The notes beneath the pieces are model-generated. The model had not been told where the DNA came from, did no database searches, and saw nothing but the letters and a program-made list of their open reading frames with translations. Source: a virus. Taken from it: 64,000 nucleotides of DNA. Positions 8,859 through 59,092 of the stretch are shown in pieces. Positions within the stretch are counted from its first letter, which is position 1, and each line of letters starts with the position of its first letter. A program made the position numbers and the translations under genes. The DNA lies in IMG/VR virus record IMGVR_UViG_3300027779_000018, positions 17,952 through 81,951 of that record; one strand, written 5' to 3'.

Positions 8859-10169
8859 ATGAATGAAACAAAGAAAGACAGTGAGAAAGTCATTTCGGAT
8901 GAGACTCAGCAGAACATAAGAATCCTAGGGATTAATATTTCACATGACGCGTCTATTGCAGTCATCGATAACGGTGTCGTAACCAGTGTCTACGAAGAGG
9001 AACGCTGTCGCAGGACGAAGTACTGGGCTCCCCATGGGGATAAGGAAACACTCTACCAGTGTATCGAGCAGAAGAACCTAGAAGAGATTGATGAGGTGGT
9101 CTTCACTTCATTTGATCGCAGGCAGTTTAATGTTGTGGTCTCACCCACGATCAGTCTCGACAGAATGAAGTCTCGTGAGTTTATTAGAAAATTAGAAACA
9201 CAACAATTGTCTCGAGCTCGGTTAGAAGAGTTGGTAGAAGAATACCCCGATGATTTCTCTATTGAGAAAATCTATGAGAACGATGAAGACCAAAGAATCA
9301 TGGATGACATCGCAACCAATCAGTTAGGATTATCTTCAGAGGAATACCTCTACAATGTAGATCACCATGTCCACCATGCCTATTGTGGATTCGTTCAGTC
9401 AGAGATGGAGAATGCATTGGTCATTGTCATGGACGGTGGTGGCTGTCAGAAATATTACGACACACATCCTGCTTACCAAGAAATTGAATCCATTTATTAT
9501 GCTACCAAAGGTGGGATGGAACCCTGTTGGAGTCGATTGTCGAACAGTCGTTTCATCGGGGACTTCGATGAGTTCTTCCCCAACGAATGTCACGCAGCTG
9601 GTCTCTGTTACTTAGATGAAGAGGAACATAGGGATGGGGTTGATCTTTGTTTTACTTCTCGTCCTAGCGCTGGTATGAACTTCAGTAACATGTCTCTAGC
9701 ACTAGGGACGGATGACCAAGGTCGAGCAGCTGGAAAAGTGATGGGTATGGCATCCTACGGAAAACCTTCTCAGAATATATTCAACAAGTATAATGTCAGT
9801 CAACAATTGGAACTCGATTCCTACGACCATACGGTGGAGATCATCAAACGTGCTATTGACTATGCACCTGATTGTAGGAACATTGTTCTCAGTGGTGGGT
9901 ACTCTTTAAACTGTACCAACAACTACAAGTACTTAGAGGCCTTCCCTGATTATCAAATCTTCGTTGACCCTATTCCCCATGATGGTGGAACGGCAGTCGG
10001 AGCTGCATTGCAGATGTGGGAAAATATTAATAGTAATAATGTTTCTAATAATGTACAAAGTACATTTAATGAAACAAATGAAGAGGATAACGACACTTTA
10101 CCCGACTGGCCAGAGATAAAAGATGATGAACCACAGATCACCCCTTTAGAGTGGAGTGCAGATAAATGA
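8859..10169 (+). CDS. NodU/CmcH carbamoyltransferase, N-terminal (Kae1-like) domain
   Basis: LGINISHDAS, EEERxxRxK, HHVHHA, DGGG, GKVMGMASYG, SGGYSLNC, HDGGTAVGAA. Confidence 0.9.
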   Translation: MNETKKDSEKVISDETQQNIRILGINISHDASIAVIDNGVVTSVYEEERCRRTKYWAPHGDKETLYQCIEQKNLEEIDEVVFTSFDRRQFNVVVSPTISLDRMKSREFIRKLETQQLSRARLEELVEEYPDDFSIEKIYENDEDQRIMDDIATNQLGLSSEEYLYNVDHHVHHAYCGFVQSEMENALVIVMDGGGCQKYYDTHPAYQEIESIYYATKGGMEPCWSRLSNSRFIGDFDEFFPNECHAAGLCYLDEEEHRDGVDLCFTSRPSAGMNFSNMSLALGTDDQGRAAGKVMGMASYGKPSQNIFNKYNVSQQLELDSYDHTVEIIKRAIDYAPDCRNIVLSGGYSLNCTNNYKYLEAFPDYQIFVDPIPHDGGTAVGAALQMWENINSNNVSNNVQSTFNETNEEDNDTLPDWPEIKDDEPQITPLEWSADK

Positions 10170-53593: not shown

Positions 53594-53806
53594 ATGAGTG
53601 ACTATATTAAAGTAGAGGGACACTCCAACCTTTTAAGAGATGGTGGTTCAACAGCAATAGTTAATAATGATGTGGCGGCATATCGTCTACAGAAGAGGCG
53701 AAAGGAAATATTTAAGAACCAAGTTAAAGAGATAAATACATTAAAAGATGACGTAACAGAGATCAAAGCTTTACTTCACACATTAATAGAGAAAATACAT
53801 GGCTAA
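53594..53806 (+). CDS. small coiled-coil virion-module protein
   Basis: KVEGH..L.RD..S.AIVN...EI..LK.D..EIK.LL. Confidence 0.75.
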   Translation: MSDYIKVEGHSNLLRDGGSTAIVNNDVAAYRLQKRRKEIFKNQVKEINTLKDDVTEIKALLHTLIEKIHG

Positions 53807-56012
53807 GACAGTAGACCAATTCAGCACGATAGAAGACTTCAGATTGAAGCACAACGAGCTCGCAATAGATGTGGGTGACAAGTCGGGCCTTAGAACTACT
53901 AATTCCACAACAGTTGTAGATGCACTTAATAGTTTAGAAGATAAATCATTCTTCTTCCAAGAGTTTATCTATACTGCTTCAGCTGGTCAAACAACATTTA
54001 CTGGTAACGATGAGTTTGCTAATTCTCTATTGATGAGAAAGAACAAGATTCAGGTATACAAAAATGCAGACTTGATACTTGAGGATACGGACTATACTAT
54101 CACAAGTCTTGATTCTAAAGGAAACTATCTTTCCCTAGCATTGACATCAGGTGCGTCTGTAAATGATAAGATTGTCATATACTCTTTCACAGGTTCATAC
54201 TTGGGTGCAGAGGGTGGAGATGCAAGGCCTGGCCAGTTCACAGAAACCGCAGCAGAAACAATTTATAATGTTAACACTAATGGTGTTATTCTAAATGGAG
54301 ATGGTTCTCCGTACCAAACACTTTCGCTTGAAAGTGGATATACTATTCAATTAGCTGGTGCAACATACGGTGAAGAAAACTTAACACTTGCGGCAGGTAA
54401 AACTTTAGCTGCACCTACTATAACAGACAACACACTTTCTGTCAATAGTGGTAACATAACAAGTGGAGTATCGGGTACATTCTCAGGTGCTTTAACTGCA
54501 GGGTCATTTACAGACGGTATAATGACTGCGACAGGTGGTGATATAACTGGTGTTGACGATATTACAGGAACAGCAGACTCTACATTCACTGCATTTAAAT
54601 TTATAGACAAAAGTGGTGCAAACTTAACTGGTGGTGTATTAACCGCAGGTAGTTTAGACATCTCAGGTAATGCAGATGTTGATGGAACGATGGAAGCAGA
54701 TGCGTACACGGTTGACAATATTCCTCTTAATGAGTACATTTCAGATACCGTTGGCGCCATGGTCACTTCTAATAGTGAAGCAGGCATTAGTGTAGATTAC
54801 CAAGATAGTGATAACACACTAGACTTTAATGTTGCTGACCCAACACTTACCTTTACAGGGGATGTTGCTGGTTCAGGACAAATAGTAAATTTAGGTAACG
54901 TATCCATTGGGTTGACAATTCAACCCGACTCTGTTGCACTAGGAACTGATACTACTGGTAACTATGTAGCTACTATTGTTGACGCAGGTAACGATCATAT
55001 TACTGTTGCAAATAGTGGTACAGAAACCGCAGGAATAACCCTAAACATTACTGATGATGCTGTTGATTCAGATCAGATAGCACCTAATGCTGTTGCACTA
55101 GGTACACAAACTACTGGAGCTTATGCGGCAACAGTTGTTGGTACAGCAAACGAAATAACAGTATCGGGAAGTGGTGGAGAAACAGCAGCTATAACGGTAA
55201 GTCTACCCGATGATGTTACTATAGGAAACGATTTAACAGTTACAGGTGACTTGACTGTAAACGGTGATACAACTGCAATTTCGACTACAAATTTAGAAAT
55301 AACCGATAAGTTAATTGTATTAGGGAAAGGTTCTAGTACTTTAGCACAGACTGATTCTGCTGGAATCCAGTTAGGTGAAAATGCGTCTGCACCTACAATT
55401 ACTTGGGATAATGGAAATGTTAGATTATCTATAAACAAAGGACTCTATTCTTCTGTAGGATTTACAGGAAACGTAACAGGTGATGCAACAGGTAACGCAG
55501 GAACAGTCACTAATGGAGTTTATACTACTGGTACTCAAACTATCGGTGGGGCAAAAACATTTAGTTCTTCCATTGTAGGTGCTTTAACAGGCAATGCAGA
55601 CACCGCTACTACCCTAGCAACTGCTATAACTATCGCAGGGAACAGTTTTAATGGTTCAGCAAATATAGCCATCGCTGTAGAAGATTTATCTAATTTTAGT
55701 TCAACAGGTGCTTCTACAGGGCAGGCCCTAGTTTGGGATGGTGGGGCAGGGGAATGGGAACCTACAACACTAGGTTCAACTACCGATTCATATACTGAAG
55801 GAACAAACAATAAATACTTTACAGATGACCGAGTCAATGACATACTTGTTTTACAAGACGGCCTAAAGAAGGTCTATGTTGATAACCCTGATGGGGGTGC
55901 TGATACTCCTATTGATGGACGTGCTACCCTCTCACTAGATTACGAAACTGTAAGTGTTGCTCCGACAGTAGTTGGTTCTACTGCGACTGGACACTTATGG
56001 TTCGTCATATAA
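53799..56012 (+). CDS. tail fibre protein
   Basis: G/T/S/A-rich; GDLTVNG, VALGT.TTG repeats; EGT.N.YFT..R. Confidence 0.8.
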   Translation: MAKTVDQFSTIEDFRLKHNELAIDVGDKSGLRTTNSTTVVDALNSLEDKSFFFQEFIYTASAGQTTFTGNDEFANSLLMRKNKIQVYKNADLILEDTDYTITSLDSKGNYLSLALTSGASVNDKIVIYSFTGSYLGAEGGDARPGQFTETAAETIYNVNTNGVILNGDGSPYQTLSLESGYTIQLAGATYGEENLTLAAGKTLAAPTITDNTLSVNSGNITSGVSGTFSGALTAGSFTDGIMTATGGDITGVDDITGTADSTFTAFKFIDKSGANLTGGVLTAGSLDISGNADVDGTMEADAYTVDNIPLNEYISDTVGAMVTSNSEAGISVDYQDSDNTLDFNVADPTLTFTGDVAGSGQIVNLGNVSIGLTIQPDSVALGTDTTGNYVATIVDAGNDHITVANSGTETAGITLNITDDAVDSDQIAPNAVALGTQTTGAYAATVVGTANEITVSGSGGETAAITVSLPDDVTIGNDLTVTGDLTVNGDTTAISTTNLEITDKLIVLGKGSSTLAQTDSAGIQLGENASAPTITWDNGNVRLSINKGLYSSVGFTGNVTGDATGNAGTVTNGVYTTGTQTIGGAKTFSSSIVGALTGNADTATTLATAITIAGNSFNGSANIAIAVEDLSNFSSTGASTGQALVWDGGAGEWEPTTLGSTTDSYTEGTNNKYFTDDRVNDILVLQDGLKKVYVDNPDGGADTPIDGRATLSLDYETVSVAPTVVGSTATGHLWFVI

Positions 56013-56021
56013 GATTATGAT

Positions 56022-57842
56022 ATGTCAGACGAAATTTTTATAAACACAGGTACTAGTTTTCAACAACAGTATACTGCGAGACAACCAGCGATAGGAACAG
56101 CTCCTACGATAGGAAGTGTTATTGCACAAGCAATTGCAACGACTCAGACTCCGTTCACCTATCAAAGAAGAAGTCCAGCTAATTATAACGCAACTGGTCA
56201 GACTCCGTTCACCTATCAACATAGAACACCGAGTATCTATCAACATCCAACGATTGGTCAACAACCGTTTACCTATGATAATAGACAACCTGCGACATAT
56301 CCTAGGATTGCACGGCAACCCGCTACTTATGCTAGACAAGGAAGACTACCATCTACCTATGATAATAGACAACCTGCGACATATCCTAGGATTGCACAAG
56401 TTACTTATCAGCATCCATTTACTTATCAACATAGAACACCGTCTACATATGCTAGACAAGGTCAAACACCTTATCCTTATATAGCAAGTGGACAACAGCC
56501 GACTGCTAATCAGAATACAGCTTCTGCACAGGCTCCAAGTATTGCGAATGCACAGACAACTTCACAACAACCTTATGCTTATCAGGCAGTAAGTCAGACA
56601 CCTTATATTGCACAAGGAAGAACACCAAGTATCTATAATGCAACTGGACAAGTGGCATATAACTTTCAGCAGCCAGCACAACAACCGTATCCTTATATTG
56701 CTCAAGGAAGACAACCAAGTACCTATCAACATAGGAACCCATTCACATATGCTGTGACACAAGCTCAATCAACTTATTCTTTTCAACAACCTGCGATAGG
56801 TCAACAACCTTATATCTATAGTGATACAATACAAACTTACTTTAGTGGATATTCTTATGAAGAGGATGAAGGTGCATTTGCAATAAATAATAGTGGTCAT
56901 TTCGGTTGTAAATATGTGGGAAATGATATTATACTATATTTCCAAGGTGACGGTAACCAAGAGAACTCAGGAAGTACTGGGACTTATGGAACTGGGACTG
57001 ACACAAGTGTCACTTATTTTAGTAGCTACGCAGAAATAGGAAGAATTAGGGATGCCGCTTCAGGATACACGGTTAGACGAACTACTGCCTATTGGAGTGG
57101 ATTTTCTACATATGACGGTGGGGACGGCTCTACTTCATTTAGTGGCACCATAACAACATCAGCTACATCAGTCACCTCAAGCATGAGAGAGTGTAATTTG
57201 AATAAAGTGTGTATTGGTGCCGGTGAAGGAGAAAGTCGTGCTAGATTTTCATTAATCTTTGAAAAGTCAGGAGATACAACACATACACTGAACTTGGATA
57301 TGTTAATTGATGTTAACTTAACGGAAGAAGAATGTCCAGGCTGTTGTGTCCATGTAAATATGACCGTAGAGACAGCAGATGGAGAAGTTAATGTTAGTAC
57401 ACTATCGGTTGGAGATATGGTTTATGCATATGACTTCTTAGGTGGTGGTAAGATGTTAACTCCAATAGTCCATAAGGTTCTGATCCCAAGAGATTGTGAG
57501 TACCAAGTTAATGACTTGTTACTAACAGAAGATCACCCAATATACTTATCAGACGGAATGCGTAGACATAAAATGGATGGGTCAGCAGGTTTGAGTGGTG
57601 GAAGACGAGCATCGGTTAATCCTGAACTAACAATGGTAAACTATGGACTAGAGGTAGATCAACTTGTAATTGGTGATGTTATGATGAAGGGTGATGGAAC
57701 AACAGAAGAAGTTACTAGTATAACTGCATATGCAGGCACACATGATAACTATGCATTACTAACAAAACAGGGTAACTGGTATGCAAATGGTGTAATGGTA
57801 GATAGTGTTGTTAAAGACTTAAACATTGAGGACATTGCATAA
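56022..57842 (+). CDS. Gln/Pro/Tyr-repeat protein with a C-terminal Hint domain
   Basis: QxP(Y/F)xY repeats over about 270 aa; Hint blocks CVHVNMTVETADG..LSVGD.V, LTEDHP, YANGVMVDS. Confidence 0.82.
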   Translation: MSDEIFINTGTSFQQQYTARQPAIGTAPTIGSVIAQAIATTQTPFTYQRRSPANYNATGQTPFTYQHRTPSIYQHPTIGQQPFTYDNRQPATYPRIARQPATYARQGRLPSTYDNRQPATYPRIAQVTYQHPFTYQHRTPSTYARQGQTPYPYIASGQQPTANQNTASAQAPSIANAQTTSQQPYAYQAVSQTPYIAQGRTPSIYNATGQVAYNFQQPAQQPYPYIAQGRQPSTYQHRNPFTYAVTQAQSTYSFQQPAIGQQPYIYSDTIQTYFSGYSYEEDEGAFAINNSGHFGCKYVGNDIILYFQGDGNQENSGSTGTYGTGTDTSVTYFSSYAEIGRIRDAASGYTVRRTTAYWSGFSTYDGGDGSTSFSGTITTSATSVTSSMRECNLNKVCIGAGEGESRARFSLIFEKSGDTTHTLNLDMLIDVNLTEEECPGCCVHVNMTVETADGEVNVSTLSVGDMVYAYDFLGGGKMLTPIVHKVLIPRDCEYQVNDLLLTEDHPIYLSDGMRRHKMDGSAGLSGGRRASVNPELTMVNYGLEVDQLVIGDVMMKGDGTTEEVTSITAYAGTHDNYALLTKQGNWYANGVMVDSVVKDLNIEDIA

Positions 57843-58741
57843 TGCCTACAGGTCAACAACCATATCCTTATACAATTCCAGCAATAGGTCAAACCCCATA
57901 TGGGTATACTGCTAACGCACAACAACCCATTATTGCAAATGCACAGTCTCCATTTACTTATGCGAGACAAGCTCAAGCTGTGGTGCAAGCGATTGCTGTT
58001 GGCCGAATACCTTATCCATATATAGCCTCTGCACAGTCTCCATTTACCTATTCTAATAGACAGCCAGGCACATATCCTAGGATTGCACAGGTTACTTATC
58101 AGCATCCGAGTACCTATCAACATAGAACACCGAGTATCTATCAACATCCAACGATTACTCAGACACCGTTTACCTATGCTAGACAAGCACAGACTACATA
58201 CCCTTATCAGGCCTCTGCACAGACTCCAAGTATTGCAAATGGACAATCGACTTCACAACAACCTTATGCTTATCAGGCAGCTTCACAGACTCCATATATC
58301 GCGAATGCACAACAACCGTATCCTTATATTGCTAATACACAGTCCCCTTATGCTTATCAAGCAAATTCACAGACTCCATATATTGCGAATGGTCAGACTA
58401 ATATCAATGTACAGAATACTGCAAGTACACAGACTCCAAGTATTGCAAACGGACAACAACCTTATCCGTATATAGCCGGTGGACAACAACCTTATATTGC
58501 AAATGGACAACAACCAACTATCGTCCAACAGCCTTACATAACACAGTATAGTTTTCAACAACCTTATGCTTATCAGGTTACATACACTAATACAAGAACA
58601 ATCGGGCCACTTGCAAAAGTCAAGGGAGTATTTGTAAATAAGGCTGGAAGTGTAGAAAAAGTAGACGAAGTATTTACAAATTCTAGTGGATCATTAGAAA
58701 AAGTTCATCAATCTGTTCCTTCGGCACAGTATCAAACTTAA
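57842..58741 (+). CDS. Gln/Pro/Tyr-repeat protein (paralogue of the upstream N-terminus)
   Basis: ANAQQPYPYI and QTPFTY repeats; TAATG coupling. Confidence 0.82.
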   Translation: MPTGQQPYPYTIPAIGQTPYGYTANAQQPIIANAQSPFTYARQAQAVVQAIAVGRIPYPYIASAQSPFTYSNRQPGTYPRIAQVTYQHPSTYQHRTPSIYQHPTITQTPFTYARQAQTTYPYQASAQTPSIANGQSTSQQPYAYQAASQTPYIANAQQPYPYIANTQSPYAYQANSQTPYIANGQTNINVQNTASTQTPSIANGQQPYPYIAGGQQPYIANGQQPTIVQQPYITQYSFQQPYAYQVTYTNTRTIGPLAKVKGVFVNKAGSVEKVDEVFTNSSGSLEKVHQSVPSAQYQT

Positions 58742-58759: not shown

Positions 58760-59092
58760 ATGGCAATCATTGCAAACATATTCATAGATCAAGGTGCGGA
58801 CTTCAGTATTACTGTAGATGTATCTGATGCAGACGGAAATGTATTGAGTCTCACTGGTTATACTGCAGCGGCACAAATAAGAAAAACTTATAGTTCTTCT
58901 AGTATATCTAAGACCTTTTCGAATTCAATTAATGCAGCTGCGGGTCAGGTAACTTTAACTCTAACGGATACACAAACAGCTGCTATTGAAGCAGGACGTT
59001 ATGTATATGACTTAAACGTAACGAGTGGTGGTGGAACAACTACAAGAGTAGTGGAAGGTCAGGTAATTGTAACGCCTGGCGTAACGAGGTAA
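58760..59092 (+). CDS. Ig-like virion adaptor protein
   Basis: IDQGADF, LTGYT..AQIRK, GRYVYD, RVVEG...VTPGVT. Confidence 0.8.
   Translation: MAIIANIFIDQGADFSITVDVSDADGNVLSLTGYTAAAQIRKTYSSSSISKTFSNSINAAAGQVTLTLTDTQTAAIEAGRYVYDLNVTSGGGTTTRVVEGQVIVTPGVTR

What the first reader, a model, noticed from the sequence alone, without database searches (positions are those of the whole stretch)
56022..58741. Paired Gln/Pro/Tyr-repeat virion proteins flanking a globular domain and a Hint autoprocessing module
Seen: two translationally coupled genes are built from 7-11 aa units (QTPFTYQHR, RQPATYPRI, ANAQQPYPYI) that are almost free of acidic residues. Gene 1 continues into a roughly 170-aa globular domain, then CPGC|CVHV..., a Hint domain starting at 57345. 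Cys1 and the TxxH block B are intact, but it ends VDS rather than HN. Established: Hint domains lacking the terminal Asn cannot splice, but can still form an N-terminal thioester and cleave or transfer it to a nucleophile, as Hedgehog does. Inference: this may be an undescribed fibre type in which the two repeat chains co-assemble into a long beta-ribbon or amyloid-like stalk carrying a tip domain whose C-terminus is released or covalently ligated by the Hint.
Basis: partly seen in the sequence, partly recalled or inferred. Interest (0 to 1): 0.8.

Follow-up and report, generated by a model that had tools for sequence, protein, structure and literature searches.

The report
Two-armed phage fibre with self-cutting cap
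An uncultured marine T4-like phage encodes a tail-fibre-like appendage as two length-matched Gln/Pro/Tyr repeat proteins, and the first ends in an intein-like (Hint) domain that has lost its splicing residue and most likely just cuts itself off.

Summary
Gene 1 (56022..57842, 606 aa) and gene 2 (57842..58741, 299 aa) overlap in ATAATG. Both carry about 250 aa of acid-free Q/P/T/A/Y repeats.

Gene 1 continues into a variable domain of about 155 aa, then CPGC|C and a genuine Hint fold (VIA-align Z 21.6 to Tetrahymena BIL2). Cys442 sits at the Cys1 position, T502/H505 form block B, and Ser595 takes the place of the terminal Asn.

New findings:
- **Repeat register.** The repeats keep a strict two-residue register with 8/10-aa units (gene 2: Tyr 31 of 31 at even positions), which points to a β-type rod.
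- **Split and fused forms.** Relatives encode the same parts either as one gene (arm, central break, arm) or as a split pair with length-matched arms. A sister pair gives r = 0.98.
- **Hint is optional.** It occurs on 25 of 112 gene-1-type proteins and comes from at least three Hint lineages. A 60%-identical homologue simply stops two residues before the Hint.
- **Asn-less Hints.** They form one clade, always sit at the C-terminus, and always keep Cys1 and TxxH.

Best reading: a removable, BIL-type, N-cleaving cap at the tip end of a two-armed fibre. Ligation remains possible. No chemistry, virion presence or arm structure has been shown.

The parts
53799..56012 (+). Upstream fibre-like gene (737 aa, ends ..GHLWFVI). 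It is the conserved neighbour directly before gene 1, or before the fused gene, in related loci.
   Evidence: ORF. The same N- and C-termini stand before the repeat gene in L001-L006 and in many LtfC-anchored loci. It has no Pfam or PHROG family at the thresholds used.
56022..57842 (+). Gene 1 (G1), 606 aa: N-terminal anchor, repeat arm 1, variable tip domain, CPGC, Hint, 11-aa tail.
   Evidence: Of 345 database relatives of its arm, the best 120 were classified: 112 have the G1 architecture and 25 of those carry a C-terminal Hint.
56022..56081 (+). Conserved N-terminal anchor (residues 1-20, MSDEIFINTGTSFQQQYTAR).
   Evidence: M1, Q14 and Q15 are invariant and I5 nearly so in 21 G1 homologues (A2). 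The same N-terminus heads the single-gene fused forms.
56082..56858 (+). Repeat arm 1 (residues 21-279): parity-locked 8/10-aa Q/P/Y units.
   Evidence: It is colinear with arm 2 at 46% identity over 259 columns, E 1e-39.
56859..57332 (+). Variable 'tip' domain (residues 280-437), β-rich and G/T/S-rich.
   Evidence: AF2 predicts β-strands at pLDDT 30-77 only. The domain differs between homologues (A2). It is shared, always next to the Hint, with proteins that have other N-termini: P0012 E 1e-7, P0016 E 3e-7. A population variant shows 14 differences in 449 nt here against 0 in the Hint.
57333..57344 (+). C438-P-G-C441, the CxxC motif directly before the nucleophile, preceded by an acidic run.
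   Evidence: C-x-x-C|C occurs in 13 of 13 Asn-less Hint junctions on G1-type proteins. In the 83-copy family alignment, 22 copies have Cys at position -4 and 22 have Pro at -3.
57345..57806 (+). Hint (BIL-type) domain, residues 442-595: Cys442 = Cys1; T502 and H505 = block B; ends D594-S595 where relatives have H-N.
   Evidence: Profile against PDB: BIL2 6y75 E 1.3e-10. AF2 pLDDT is 90-98. Foldseek E 2e-10, TM 0.86. VIA Z 21.6, rmsd 1.6 Å. Column statistics are and the tree. Pfam hits on the query itself are below threshold.
57807..57842 (+). 11-residue non-conserved tail (VVKDLNIEDIA) and the stop codon, which overlaps the gene 2 start.
   Evidence: Tails of Asn-less family members are 0-25 aa and unrelated to each other.
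57842..58741 (+). Gene 2 (G2), 299 aa: repeat arm 2 (residues 1-251, nt 57842..58594) and a conserved C-terminal domain (residues 252-299, nt 58595..58738).
   Evidence: The C-domain is conserved in 20 homologues: R252, A258, V260, K261, K287, H289, Q290 and P293 are invariant (A3). The same C-terminus ends the fused forms. It has no Pfam, PHROG or PDB relative.
58760..59092 (+). LtfC-like 110-aa protein, the conserved downstream neighbour used to anchor the related loci.
   Evidence: Pfam LtfC 29.5 bits against a cut-off of 27. phrog_3304 'L-shaped tail fiber protein assembly', E 8.9e-24. There are 211 relatives in IMG/VR, of which 80 were fetched.

Best explanation
G1 and G2 are the two halves of one fibre-like appendage of a marine T4-like myovirus. 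Each contributes a β-type repeat arm of about 250 aa, and the two arms are matched in length.

Other phages of this group encode the same thing as a single chain: N-anchor, arm, short central break, arm, C-domain. Both termini are conserved and the middle is variable. I therefore infer that the two arms run side by side, with both conserved ends at the virion and the break at the far end. In the window the chain is split at that far end, and G1 has gained a hypervariable tip domain there.

The Hint behind the tip domain is a bacterial-intein-like (BIL-type) autoprocessing domain that has lost the Asn step. After translation, Cys442 attacks the C441-C442 peptide bond (N-S acyl shift, helped by T502 and H505). 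The thioester is then resolved by water or a small thiol. This releases the Hint with its tail and leaves G1(1-441) ending in ..EEECPGC.

The Hint is an optional, exchangeable cap that must remove itself. It is not a building block of the fibre.

Shown: the anatomy, fold, residue conservation, split and fused forms, and length matching. Inferred: cleavage, arm pairing and orientation, and virion location.
For: Hint identity:
- Profile E 1.3e-10 to BIL2. The model has pLDDT 90-98. Foldseek TM 0.86. VIA Z 21.6, with intein residue 1 on C442 and the terminal Asn position on S595.
- More distant members of the same family pass Pfam cut-offs for Hint_2, PT-HINT, Hint and Intein_splicing.

Catalytic residues for the first step are kept. 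Across 83 domain copies, Cys1 is C in 65 of 66, block B T in 75 of 78 and H in 77 of 78.

Asn-less copies (DS 31, HS 13) all sit at the extreme C-terminus, with tails of 0-25 aa (one fragment has 45). HN copies are mostly internal. The Asn-less copies form one group with SH-aLRT 99.

Removable cap:
- L033 G1 (418 aa, no Hint) is 60% identical to L055 G1 (562 aa, Hint) over 419 aa. It ends aligned to the residue two positions before L055's Cys1.
- Only 4 of 32 split loci and 25 of 112 G1-type database proteins carry a Hint.
- G3-type proteins without a Hint stop a few residues after the poly-Gly that precedes the Hint in the others.

Recurrent gain: three separate Hint lineages sit on these fibre genes.

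Two-arm fibre:
- There are 21 fused and 32 split non-identical forms.
- The central break lies at relative position 0.35-0.65 in 19 of 21 fused proteins.
- Arm1 against arm2 gives Spearman 0.77, with ratio 1.08 ± 0.13, n = 32.
- For the sister G3/G4 pair, Pearson is 0.984, n = 31. In the 13 pairs with a Hint, pre-Hint length minus G4 length is 38.5 ± 2.2 aa, while G4 ranges from 206 to 358 aa.
- Parity lock holds at 90-97% for G1/G2 and 98-99.7% for G3/G4.

Context: baseplate genes stand upstream and an LtfC-like gene and fibre genes downstream. In HTVC008M, the fibre gene in front of its LtfC-like gene ends in a different self-cleaving module, Peptidase_S74.

The stretch is held nearly identically in 14 DNA runs of 14 studies. 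One contig spans tip, Hint and junction with 0 differences.
Against: - No cleavage product, thioester or virion protein has been observed. Everything on function is inference.
- The query's own Pfam Hint hits are below threshold (Hint_2 15.7 bits against 28.4).
- Because homologues work without a Hint, its benefit, if any, is unknown. It may be neutral or selfish.
- AF2 gave no usable model of a fused protein (mean pLDDT 32). The Atlas model of G2 is poor (pLDDT 0.47). The complex prediction could not be run.
- Arm orientation is not determined.
- Some G3-type proteins with a tip domain have no second-arm gene beside them, so a single arm can stand alone.
- A sequence-level test found no general own-partner preference between arms (ranks 1-28 of 31).
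- Three of 31 G3/G4 pairs break the length rule, at about 44, 45 and 88 aa off the usual 45-aa difference.
- The loci are related, so the correlation p-values overstate independence.
- Contigs from RNA libraries cover parts of both genes, but this does not prove transcription.
Confidence: 0.6

Rival explanations
1. Ligation rather than simple cleavage. The thioester at C441 is attacked by an amine: the N-terminus of G2, which lies next to it if the arms form a hairpin, or a lysine of a neighbouring subunit. This would covalently close or cross-link the fibre, as the Tetrahymena BIL2 domain does when it joins a ubiquitin-like domain to lysines.
For: - The closest solved structure is BIL2. It forms a Lys-εNH2 to C-terminus isopeptide without ATP (passages of PMC8616854).
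- The Hint sits exactly at the break between the two arm genes in G1/G2 and in G3/G4. The genes often overlap by one base.
- Single-chain forms exist, so covalent continuity is compatible with function.
- In G3 the Hint follows a flexible poly-Gly run.
- An unexplained Cys lies 4-5 residues before Cys1 in 23 of 25 G1-type junctions.
Against: - Most split pairs have no Hint (28 of 32 G1/G2 pairs; 18 of 31 G3/G4 pairs). Ligation therefore cannot be required.
- The N-termini of G2 and G4 are the same with and without a Hint.
- The expected N-terminal residue after Met removal is Pro or Ala, with no Cys, Ser or Thr.
- No adduct has been seen.
Confidence: 0.15
2. Intramolecular-chaperone role. The Hint is needed transiently to fold or oligomerise the tip domain it travels with, and is then cleaved off, like the Peptidase_S74 C-terminal chaperone of endosialidases and other fibres.
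For: - Tip domain and Hint move together as a cassette onto different N-terminal scaffolds: P0012, P0016 and P0005 share tip plus Hint.
- A related phage uses S74 on the fibre gene before its LtfC-like gene.
- The Hint also caps a lambda gpI-like protein and a minor tail protein.
Against: - L033 carries the same tip domain as L055 (60% identity) with no Hint.
- G3-type Hints follow bare repeats and poly-Gly, with no tip domain to fold.
- No chaperone activity is known to me for any Hint domain. This is from recall and I did not search for it.
Confidence: 0.12
3. Inactive relic or structural or binding domain. The Hint no longer reacts and stays on the fibre tip as a globular knob.
For: - The Asn and the penultimate His are lost.
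- The query scores below Pfam thresholds.
- The related AXH module of eukaryotes, which the family also matches, is known to me as a non-catalytic binding domain (recalled).
Against: - Cys1, T and H of block B are kept in every Asn-less copy that reaches them. This covers a clade with long branches and is not expected for a relic.
- In a population variant the Hint has 0 differences, against 14 in the tip domain.
Confidence: 0.1
4. The repeat regions are disordered low-complexity linkers or sticky 'hairs', not a paired rod.
For: - Composition resembles adhesive or prion-like low-complexity sequence.
- AF2 and the Atlas give no confident structure.
- No solved relative exists.
Against: Disorder would not preserve residue parity over 250 aa in dozens of diverged homologues. 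Nor would it match the lengths of two neighbouring genes to within a few residues.
Confidence: 0.05

Closest known systems
Bacterial intein-like (BIL) domains, A and B types (Amitai 2003; Dassa 2004, as summarised in PMC7765530 and PMC7664689; C. thermocellum BIL, PDB 2lwy)
   Same: - Hint fold (2lwy: Z 17.6; profile E 1.9e-7).
- No +1 nucleophile.
- Sits in a hypervariable, non-conserved protein.
- Expected products are cleavage rather than splicing. According to the review passages read, B-type domains keep all intein motifs except the C-terminal one.
   Different: - It stands at the very C-terminus of a phage fibre protein with only an 11-aa tail.
- The C-terminal motif is D-S within a clade of H-S and D-S.
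- It has a C-x-x-C directly before Cys1.
- I could not compare it with the published A- and B-type motif definitions, because those primary papers were not read.
BIL2 of the Tetrahymena thermophila BUBL1 locus (PDB 6y75, 6tmm)
   Same: It is the best structural and sequence match: Z 21.6, rmsd 1.6 Å over 142 residues, 20% identity; profile E 1.3e-10. Its cargo lies N-terminal of the Hint and is activated as a thioester.
   Different: BIL2 keeps His-Asn, stands between ubiquitin-like domains, and ligates its cargo to lysines with Zn activation (PMC8616854 passages). Here Asn is absent, no C-extein exists, and no ligation has been shown.
Hedgehog / Hog C-terminal autoprocessing domain (PDB 1at0)
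   Same: The layout is cargo followed by a Hint at the C-terminus. Only the N-S acyl shift step is used and no Asn is needed. Z 16.0, with Hh Cys258 on C442.
   Different: There is no sterol-recognition region, only 11 residues after the Hint, so no dedicated adduct-recruiting part. It is a prokaryotic virus protein. The Pfam Hint (PF01079) hit is 12 bits against a cut-off of 29.7.
Peptidase_S74 intramolecular chaperone of endosialidases and tail fibres
   Same: This is a functional analogue: a C-terminal module of phage fibre proteins that cleaves itself off. It is present on the fibre gene before the LtfC-like gene in Pelagibacter phage HTVC008M (51 bits).
   Different: The fold and chemistry are unrelated. 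There was no S74 hit in G1. A chaperone role for the Hint is not supported by the Hint-less homologue.
β-helical and β-spiral phage fibre shafts with short sequence repeats (for example the octapeptide repeat of the T4 gp5 C-terminal triple β-helix; recalled, not tested)
   Same: Short units (8/10 aa) with strict in-out alternation, in a T4-like baseplate and fibre gene block.
   Different: - No sequence or profile relative among solved structures.
- Acid-free Q/P/Y composition.
- Two arms of matched length, encoded in one gene or in two.
- No confident model.

Membership tests
Hint (Hedgehog/intein) superfamily | Hint fold (horseshoe of two pseudo-symmetric β subdomains) | tested here: met
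   AF2 pLDDT is 90-98 over residues 439-602. Foldseek gives E 2e-10 and TM 0.86 to 6y75, with 30 matches at E <= 0.001 (inteins, a BIL domain, Hedgehog). VIA gives Z 21.6 to BIL2, 17.6 to 2lwy and 16.0 to Hedgehog.
Hint (Hedgehog/intein) superfamily | N-terminal nucleophile (Cys/Ser 1) and block B T-x-x-H | tested here: met
   C442, T502 and H505. Their columns hold C in 65 of 66, T in 75 of 78 and H in 77 of 78 copies. Structural alignments start at C442.
Hint (Hedgehog/intein) superfamily | Score above the curated cut-off of a Pfam Hint-clan model | tested here: not met
   Query scores: Hint_2 15.7 bits (cut-off 28.4), Hint 12 (29.7), AXH 19.1 (33). Relatives found by the query pass: P0018 scores Hint_2 111.7, PT-HINT 101.1, Hint 85.9 and Intein_splicing 73.5 bits. 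Membership therefore rests on transitive homology and on the fold.
Inteins (protein splicing elements) | C-terminal His-Asn and a Cys/Ser/Thr at +1 of a C-extein that is ligated to the N-extein | tested here: not met
   The domain ends D594-S595. Val is at +1, and only 11 non-conserved residues follow before the stop.
[quoted passage not shown]
   +1 is Val or Glu in the clade. The host is a hypervariable fibre tip. The definition is taken from review passages.
Bacterial intein-like (BIL) domains | Match to the published A-type or B-type motif sets | not tested
   The primary papers (Amitai 2003; Dassa 2004) are not in the library that I read. Only review summaries were seen.
Bacterial intein-like (BIL) domains | Autocleavage at the N-terminal junction | not testable with these tools
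   This needs expression of the wild type against C442A.
Hedgehog-type Hog domains | Hint followed by a sterol- or adduct-recognition region that recruits the nucleophile | tested here: not met
   Only 11 residues follow the Hint. Clade tails are 0-25 aa and unrelated to each other.
Peptidase_S74 fibre chaperone | Match to PF13884 | tested here: not met
   There is no hit in G1 or G2 at E <= 1. The model does hit HTVC008M gp059.

The most novel reading that the evidence does not exclude
The Hint is a one-sided protein ligase for the fibre. Once the two arms have zipped up, the thioester at the end of G1's tip lies next to the free N-terminus of G2 (or a nearby lysine). Aminolysis then re-creates in trans the covalently closed arm-tip-arm hairpin that sister phages encode as one gene. 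The Cys placed 4-5 residues upstream (CPGC) would act as a relay or redox gate. If so, this would be a natural 'expressed protein ligation' step in virion assembly.
Probability: 0.12. Interest if true: 0.9.

Novelty: new variant of a known kind. Interest (0 to 1): 0.72.

Why it matters
Three points would interest specialists.

1. **An uncharacterised fibre building block.** It has a parity-locked 8/10-aa Q/P/Y repeat and two arms whose lengths are matched to within a few residues, whether they are encoded in one gene or two. I found no structure, family name or paper for it. It is common in marine T4-like phages: about 300-345 database clusters per query, and the window's stretch is held in 14 DNA runs of 14 studies.

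2. **Non-intein Hint domains as recurrent, exchangeable C-terminal caps of phage tail proteins.** One clade has given up the Asn step but kept the thioester-forming residues. This is a natural case of Hedgehog-like chemistry in phage morphogenesis. It is testable with one construct and one point mutant.

3. **Tools.** If the thioester is used for ligation, it would be a new assembly principle and a ready-made tool for C-terminal protein activation.

The tip domain between arm and Hint is the likely host-range determinant of an abundant, uncultured phage group.

Tried and rejected
- **Cultured phages.** The G1/G2 DNA (distant blastn), G1, the Hint alone at E <= 1, G2 at E <= 1 and family member P0038 were all searched. 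The only return was a chance-level hit in two Desulfovibrio phage records, E 0.1.
- **PHROGs.** Nothing for G1, G2 or the upstream fibre.
- **First word-indexed protein search.** The C-terminal half found only 2 relatives. The exhaustive search found 68.
- **The search for related loci with alignment A1.** I used the single protein instead.
- **Metagenome scan with tip plus Hint.** One distant locus, not used.
- **AF2 of a fused protein (L063, 18-sequence alignment).** Mean pLDDT 32, with only the C-domain at 55-62. No information on arm pairing.
- **ESM Atlas for G2.** Own model pLDDT 0.47. Nearest clusters are unnamed viral proteins with scores <= 0.85.
- **Profile of G2 homologues against PDB sequences.** 0 hits at E <= 1.
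- **Complex prediction (G1 1-290 with G2).** The job was never accepted: queue full, too-early bounces or no answer. No verdict exists.
- **Concerted-evolution test.** The window's arm 1 matches its own arm 2 best (rank 1 of 31), but most loci do not (ranks up to 28). I make no claim of sequence-level co-evolution.
- **First heuristic for the central break of fused proteins.** It failed in about 10 of 21 and was replaced by a windowed score.
- **Programmed frameshift or read-through joining G1 to G2.** Rejected, because the gaps between the two genes vary from -20 to +14 nt among loci.
- **Reads skipping the Hint.** None were seen. The listed joints have short sides in repeats and look like assembly artefacts.
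- **L001 against L016 tips.** Not homologous, so they give no second with/without pair.
- **Literature.** Searches for Hint with tail fibre or structural proteins, BIL, BUBL, repeat fibres and AXH with Hint or intein found no paper describing this architecture. These are word searches of an open-access library, not proof that nothing is in print.
- **Tree.** The careful tree search did not finish, so the quick tree was used.


Full report
**What is there**

The window is the right-hand 64 kb of an 81,951-bp IMG/VR virus record. It encodes T4-type baseplate proteins: gp6-like phrog_219 at E 1e-154, gp8-like phrog_438, gp5-like and gp7-like. The gp6-like protein is about 40% identical to those of Methylophilales phage Melnitz and Pelagibacter phages Mosig and HTVC008M. 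The phage is therefore an uncultured marine T4-like myovirus.

Downstream of a 2229-aa VrlC-like gene and a 737-aa fibre-like gene lie gene 1 (G1, 56022..57842, 606 aa) and gene 2 (G2, 57842..58741, 299 aa). They overlap in ATAATG, and a GAGGA stands before the G2 start. An LtfC-like 110-aa gene follows (Pfam LtfC; phrog_3304 'L-shaped tail fiber protein assembly'), and then further fibre-like genes.

**The repeats**

G1 residues 1-279 and G2 residues 1-251 consist of Q, T, A, Y and P with almost no acidic residues. They are not simple tandem DNA repeats. They do keep a strict two-residue register:
- In G1, Tyr is on odd positions 27 of 30 times and Pro on even positions 28 of 30 times.
- In G2, Tyr is on even positions 31 of 31 times and Pro on odd positions 30 of 31 times. 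The binomial p values run from 8e-6 to 9e-10.
- Self-similarity peaks only at even lags (8, 10, 18, 20...), far outside 1000 shuffles.
- The same holds in 32 related gene pairs: Tyr is on the majority parity in 775 of 844 and 784 of 850 cases.

A register kept over 250 residues and across diverged homologues is what a continuous β-type structure built of 8- and 10-residue units would need. It argues against a disordered linker.

The two repeat regions are colinear paralogues, 46% identical over 259 columns. No Pfam or PHROG family, solved structure or named Atlas cluster matches them.

**One gene or two**

I anchored on the conserved LtfC-like gene and fetched 80 of 211 related IMG/VR loci. 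Adding the loci found with G1 and G2, I read the genes upstream of the anchor.

- **Split loci.** Thirty-two non-identical loci have the window's split layout. G1 is a conserved N-terminus, a repeat arm and a variable C-terminal domain. G2 is a repeat arm and a conserved C-terminal domain.
- **Fused loci.** Twenty-one have a single gene instead. It carries the G1 N-terminus and the G2 C-terminus, with 300-500 aa of repeats between them. The least repeat-like 30-aa window of these fused proteins lies at relative position 0.35-0.65 of the repeat region in 19 of 21. In one (L086) a globular domain of about 270 aa sits there.
- **Arm lengths.** In split pairs the two arm lengths co-vary (Spearman 0.77, ratio 1.08 ± 0.13, n = 32).
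- **A sister system.** Searching with G2 uncovered a related pair in the same phage contigs. G3 has a different N-domain, the same repeats and a poly-Gly run. G4 has repeats and its own conserved C-domain. Here the match is striking. Pearson is 0.984 over 31 non-identical pairs. In the 13 pairs with a Hint, pre-Hint length minus G4 length is 38.5 ± 2.2 aa, while G4 ranges from 206 to 358 aa. Three pairs deviate, at about 44, 45 and 88 aa off the usual 45-aa difference.

The loci are related, so these are not independent samples. Even so, many distinct length classes are covered.

I read this as two arms that pair along their whole length. Both termini are conserved, the middle is variable, and the fused chain breaks mid-way. 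The simplest topology is therefore a hairpin, with the break or tip domain at the far end. That orientation is inference. AF2 gave nothing usable (mean pLDDT 32), the complex prediction could not be run, and some G3-type proteins with a tip domain have no second-arm gene next to them.

**The Hint**

Pfam sees only sub-threshold hits in G1 (Hint_2 15.7 bits, AXH 19.1 bits). An exhaustive search with residues 270-606 found 68 relatives.

- **Family alignment.** In a local profile alignment of 83 domain copies, the query's C442 falls in the Cys1 column (C in 65 of 66). T502 and H505 fall in block B (75 and 77 of 78). D594-S595 fall in the columns where more distant members have His-Asn. Those distant members pass Pfam cut-offs for Hint_2, PT-HINT, Hint and Intein_splicing.
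- **Solved structures.** A profile of 51 members hits solved Hint domains: Tetrahymena BIL2 at E 1.3e-10, NrdJ-1 intein at 1e-7 and C. thermocellum BIL at 2e-7.
- **Model.** The AF2 model of this part has pLDDT 90-98. It matches BIL2 with Foldseek TM 0.86 and VIA Z 21.6, rmsd 1.6 Å over 142 residues. Inteins follow at Z 13-18 and Hedgehog at Z 16.0. Intein residue 1 and Hedgehog Cys258 align to C442. The last intein residue aligns to S595.

The domain is therefore a true Hint that keeps what the N-S acyl shift needs and lacks what Asn cyclisation needs.

**What the family pattern says**

The terminal dipeptides are D-S in 31 copies, H-N in 18, H-S in 13 and S-N in 4, with a few others.
- All D-S and H-S copies sit at the very end of their protein, with tails of 0-25 aa (one fragment has 45).
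- H-N copies are mostly internal, in tandem Hint arrays.
- In a quick ML tree the Asn-less copies form one group (SH-aLRT 99, 45 rows). The window lies inside a D-S subclade (96) that also carries C-x-x-C directly before Cys1.
- Every Asn-less copy that reaches those columns keeps Cys1, T and H.
- The same Asn-less Hint caps proteins with other N-termini, among them a lambda gpI-like tail assembly protein and a minor tail protein. In several of these it is preceded by a relative of the window's tip domain.

This is the signature of a working, exchangeable C-terminal module that needs only the first reaction step.

**The Hint is optional**

- Only the window, L055, L001 (= L032) and L062 among the 32 split loci have one.
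- Among the best 120 of 345 database relatives of the G1 arm, 112 have the G1 architecture and 25 of these end in a Hint. Eleven are Asn-less, 13 are of a different 'HNK-stop' type and one ends H-D.
- Of 42 distinct G3 proteins, 12 have a third type, H-N plus a short tail.
- The three types are separate lineages in the tree.
- L033 G1, without a Hint, is 60% identical to L055 G1 over 419 aa and ends aligned two residues before L055's Cys1.
- G3 proteins without a Hint end a few residues after the poly-Gly that precedes the Hint in the others.

The mature, processed protein would thus equal the natural Hint-less protein. This is what one expects of a cap that removes itself. It argues against an essential structural or chaperone role.

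**Mechanism proposed**

1. After translation, Cys442 attacks the C441 carbonyl, with T502 and H505 assisting. This step is inferred from established intein, BIL and Hedgehog chemistry, as summarised in the passages read.
2. Water or a thiol resolves the thioester.
3. G1(1-441), ending ..EEECPGC, stays on the fibre, and the Hint leaves.

Why these fibre genes acquire Hints again and again is open. The free, exposed C-terminus at the tip end of arm 1 may simply tolerate a self-removing passenger that rides on frequently exchanged tip cassettes. Alternatively the thioester may be put to use.

The second possibility is the main rival:
- The closest solved relative, BIL2, transfers its cargo's C-terminus to lysines.
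- The Hint sits exactly at the break between the two arm genes.
- 23 of 25 G1-type junctions carry an unexplained Cys 4-5 residues upstream of Cys1, in two independent Hint lineages, against 0 of 30 G3-type junctions.

Against it, most pairs do without any Hint.

**Population data**

The stretch is held at a word share of 0.69 or more in 14 DNA runs of 14 studies, mostly seawater, and partly in RNA libraries. One DNA contig spans tip, Hint and the gene junction without a difference. A variant strain differs at 14 of 449 positions in the tip domain and at 7 positions in the linker before CPGC, but nowhere in the Hint. RNA-library contigs cover parts of both genes, which does not prove transcription.

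**Comparison with what is known**

By fold, residues and context, this is a BIL-type Hint with a Hedgehog-like layout (cargo, then Hint, with no C-extein) and without an adduct-recognition region. It is not an intein. Its functional analogue in phage fibres is the unrelated Peptidase_S74 C-terminal chaperone, which HTVC008M carries on the fibre gene before its own LtfC-like gene.

UniProt-derived viral models include many 'Hint domain containing protein [uncultured Caudovirales phage]' entries, some with collagen or FN3 annotations. Such proteins are therefore in databases. My literature searches found no study of Hint caps on phage fibres or of this repeat fibre.

Earlier AI notes of this scan describe similar Hint caps on fibre proteins of other uncultured phages. 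One is followed by a single conserved Lys, as in L001 and L062. Another has a tip split into two genes at a Hint. These notes are leads, not independent evidence.

**Verdict**

The Hint is a new variant of a known kind. The two-armed, parity-locked repeat fibre it sits on appears undescribed. None of the chemistry, assembly or virion location has been shown.

Noticed in passing
window 57345-57806, and proteins P0018, P0068, P0054, P0063, P0042: The Pfam AXH model (ataxin-1/HBP1 module, PF08517) matches this Hint family. It hits 33 of 51 alignment members at E <= 0.01 (best 3.4e-18) and scores above its 33-bit cut-off in five relatives (41.9-61.5 bits). The family profile also hits solved HBP1 (1v06, E 1.4e-4) and ataxin-1 chains. 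AXH may be a Hint derivative. Two library searches found no paper on this.
   Followed up: partly
related contigs, e.g. L099-L178 (G3 at about 5001 of each locus); expected beyond the window's right end: There is a sister two-gene system. G3 has an 'MATG.Q.VKTP' N-domain, the same repeats and a poly-Gly run, with or without a canonical H-N Hint. G4 has repeats and a conserved '..RWD..SQQWPATP..' C-domain. Their lengths are matched at r = 0.98. In relatives it lies about 6 kb downstream of the LtfC-like gene, which would be past the end of this contig.
   Followed up: yes
proteins P0018 (1353 aa), P0048, P0055: These proteins carry 3-5 Hint domains in direct tandem, with H-N followed after a few residues by the next C-C-F or G-C-F. 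The last copy of P0018 lacks the Asn. Their function is unknown.
   Followed up: no
L096 3836-5716 (Pelagibacter phage HTVC008M gp059): In this cultured relative, the fibre gene standing before the LtfC-like gene ends in a Peptidase_S74 self-cleaving chaperone (51 bits). Different self-removing C-terminal modules are thus used at this place in the fibre block.
   Followed up: partly
window 57333-57347, and 25 G1-type junctions: A Cys lies 4-5 residues before the Hint nucleophile in 23 of 25 G1-type junctions from two independent Hint lineages. It is absent from all 30 G3-type junctions. A redox gate, an acyl relay or a metal site are possible, and none was tested.
   Followed up: partly
window about 57558-57602 (G1 residues about 513-527): The window's Hint has a private insertion of about 15 residues (MRRHKMDGSAGLSGG) in the loop after block B. 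It is absent from all aligned relatives and coincides with a pLDDT dip.
   Followed up: no
window 56210 / 58112: One 288-nt contig of an RNA library joins G1 codon 63 in frame to G2 codon 91 through a 45-nt stretch shared by both genes. This is either an assembly collapse between the paralogous arms or a recombinant that would make a short fused form.
   Followed up: no
window 8859-10169 and 2036-2111: A carbamoyltransferase-like auxiliary gene (phrog_1601, E 6e-46) and a tRNA-Ala(TGC) lie in the left part of the window.
   Followed up: no
proteins P0013, P0008: The Asn-less Hint also caps a lambda gpI-like tail assembly protein (phrog_32, E 5e-39) and a minor-tail-protein relative. The cap is therefore not restricted to the repeat fibre.
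   Followed up: partly
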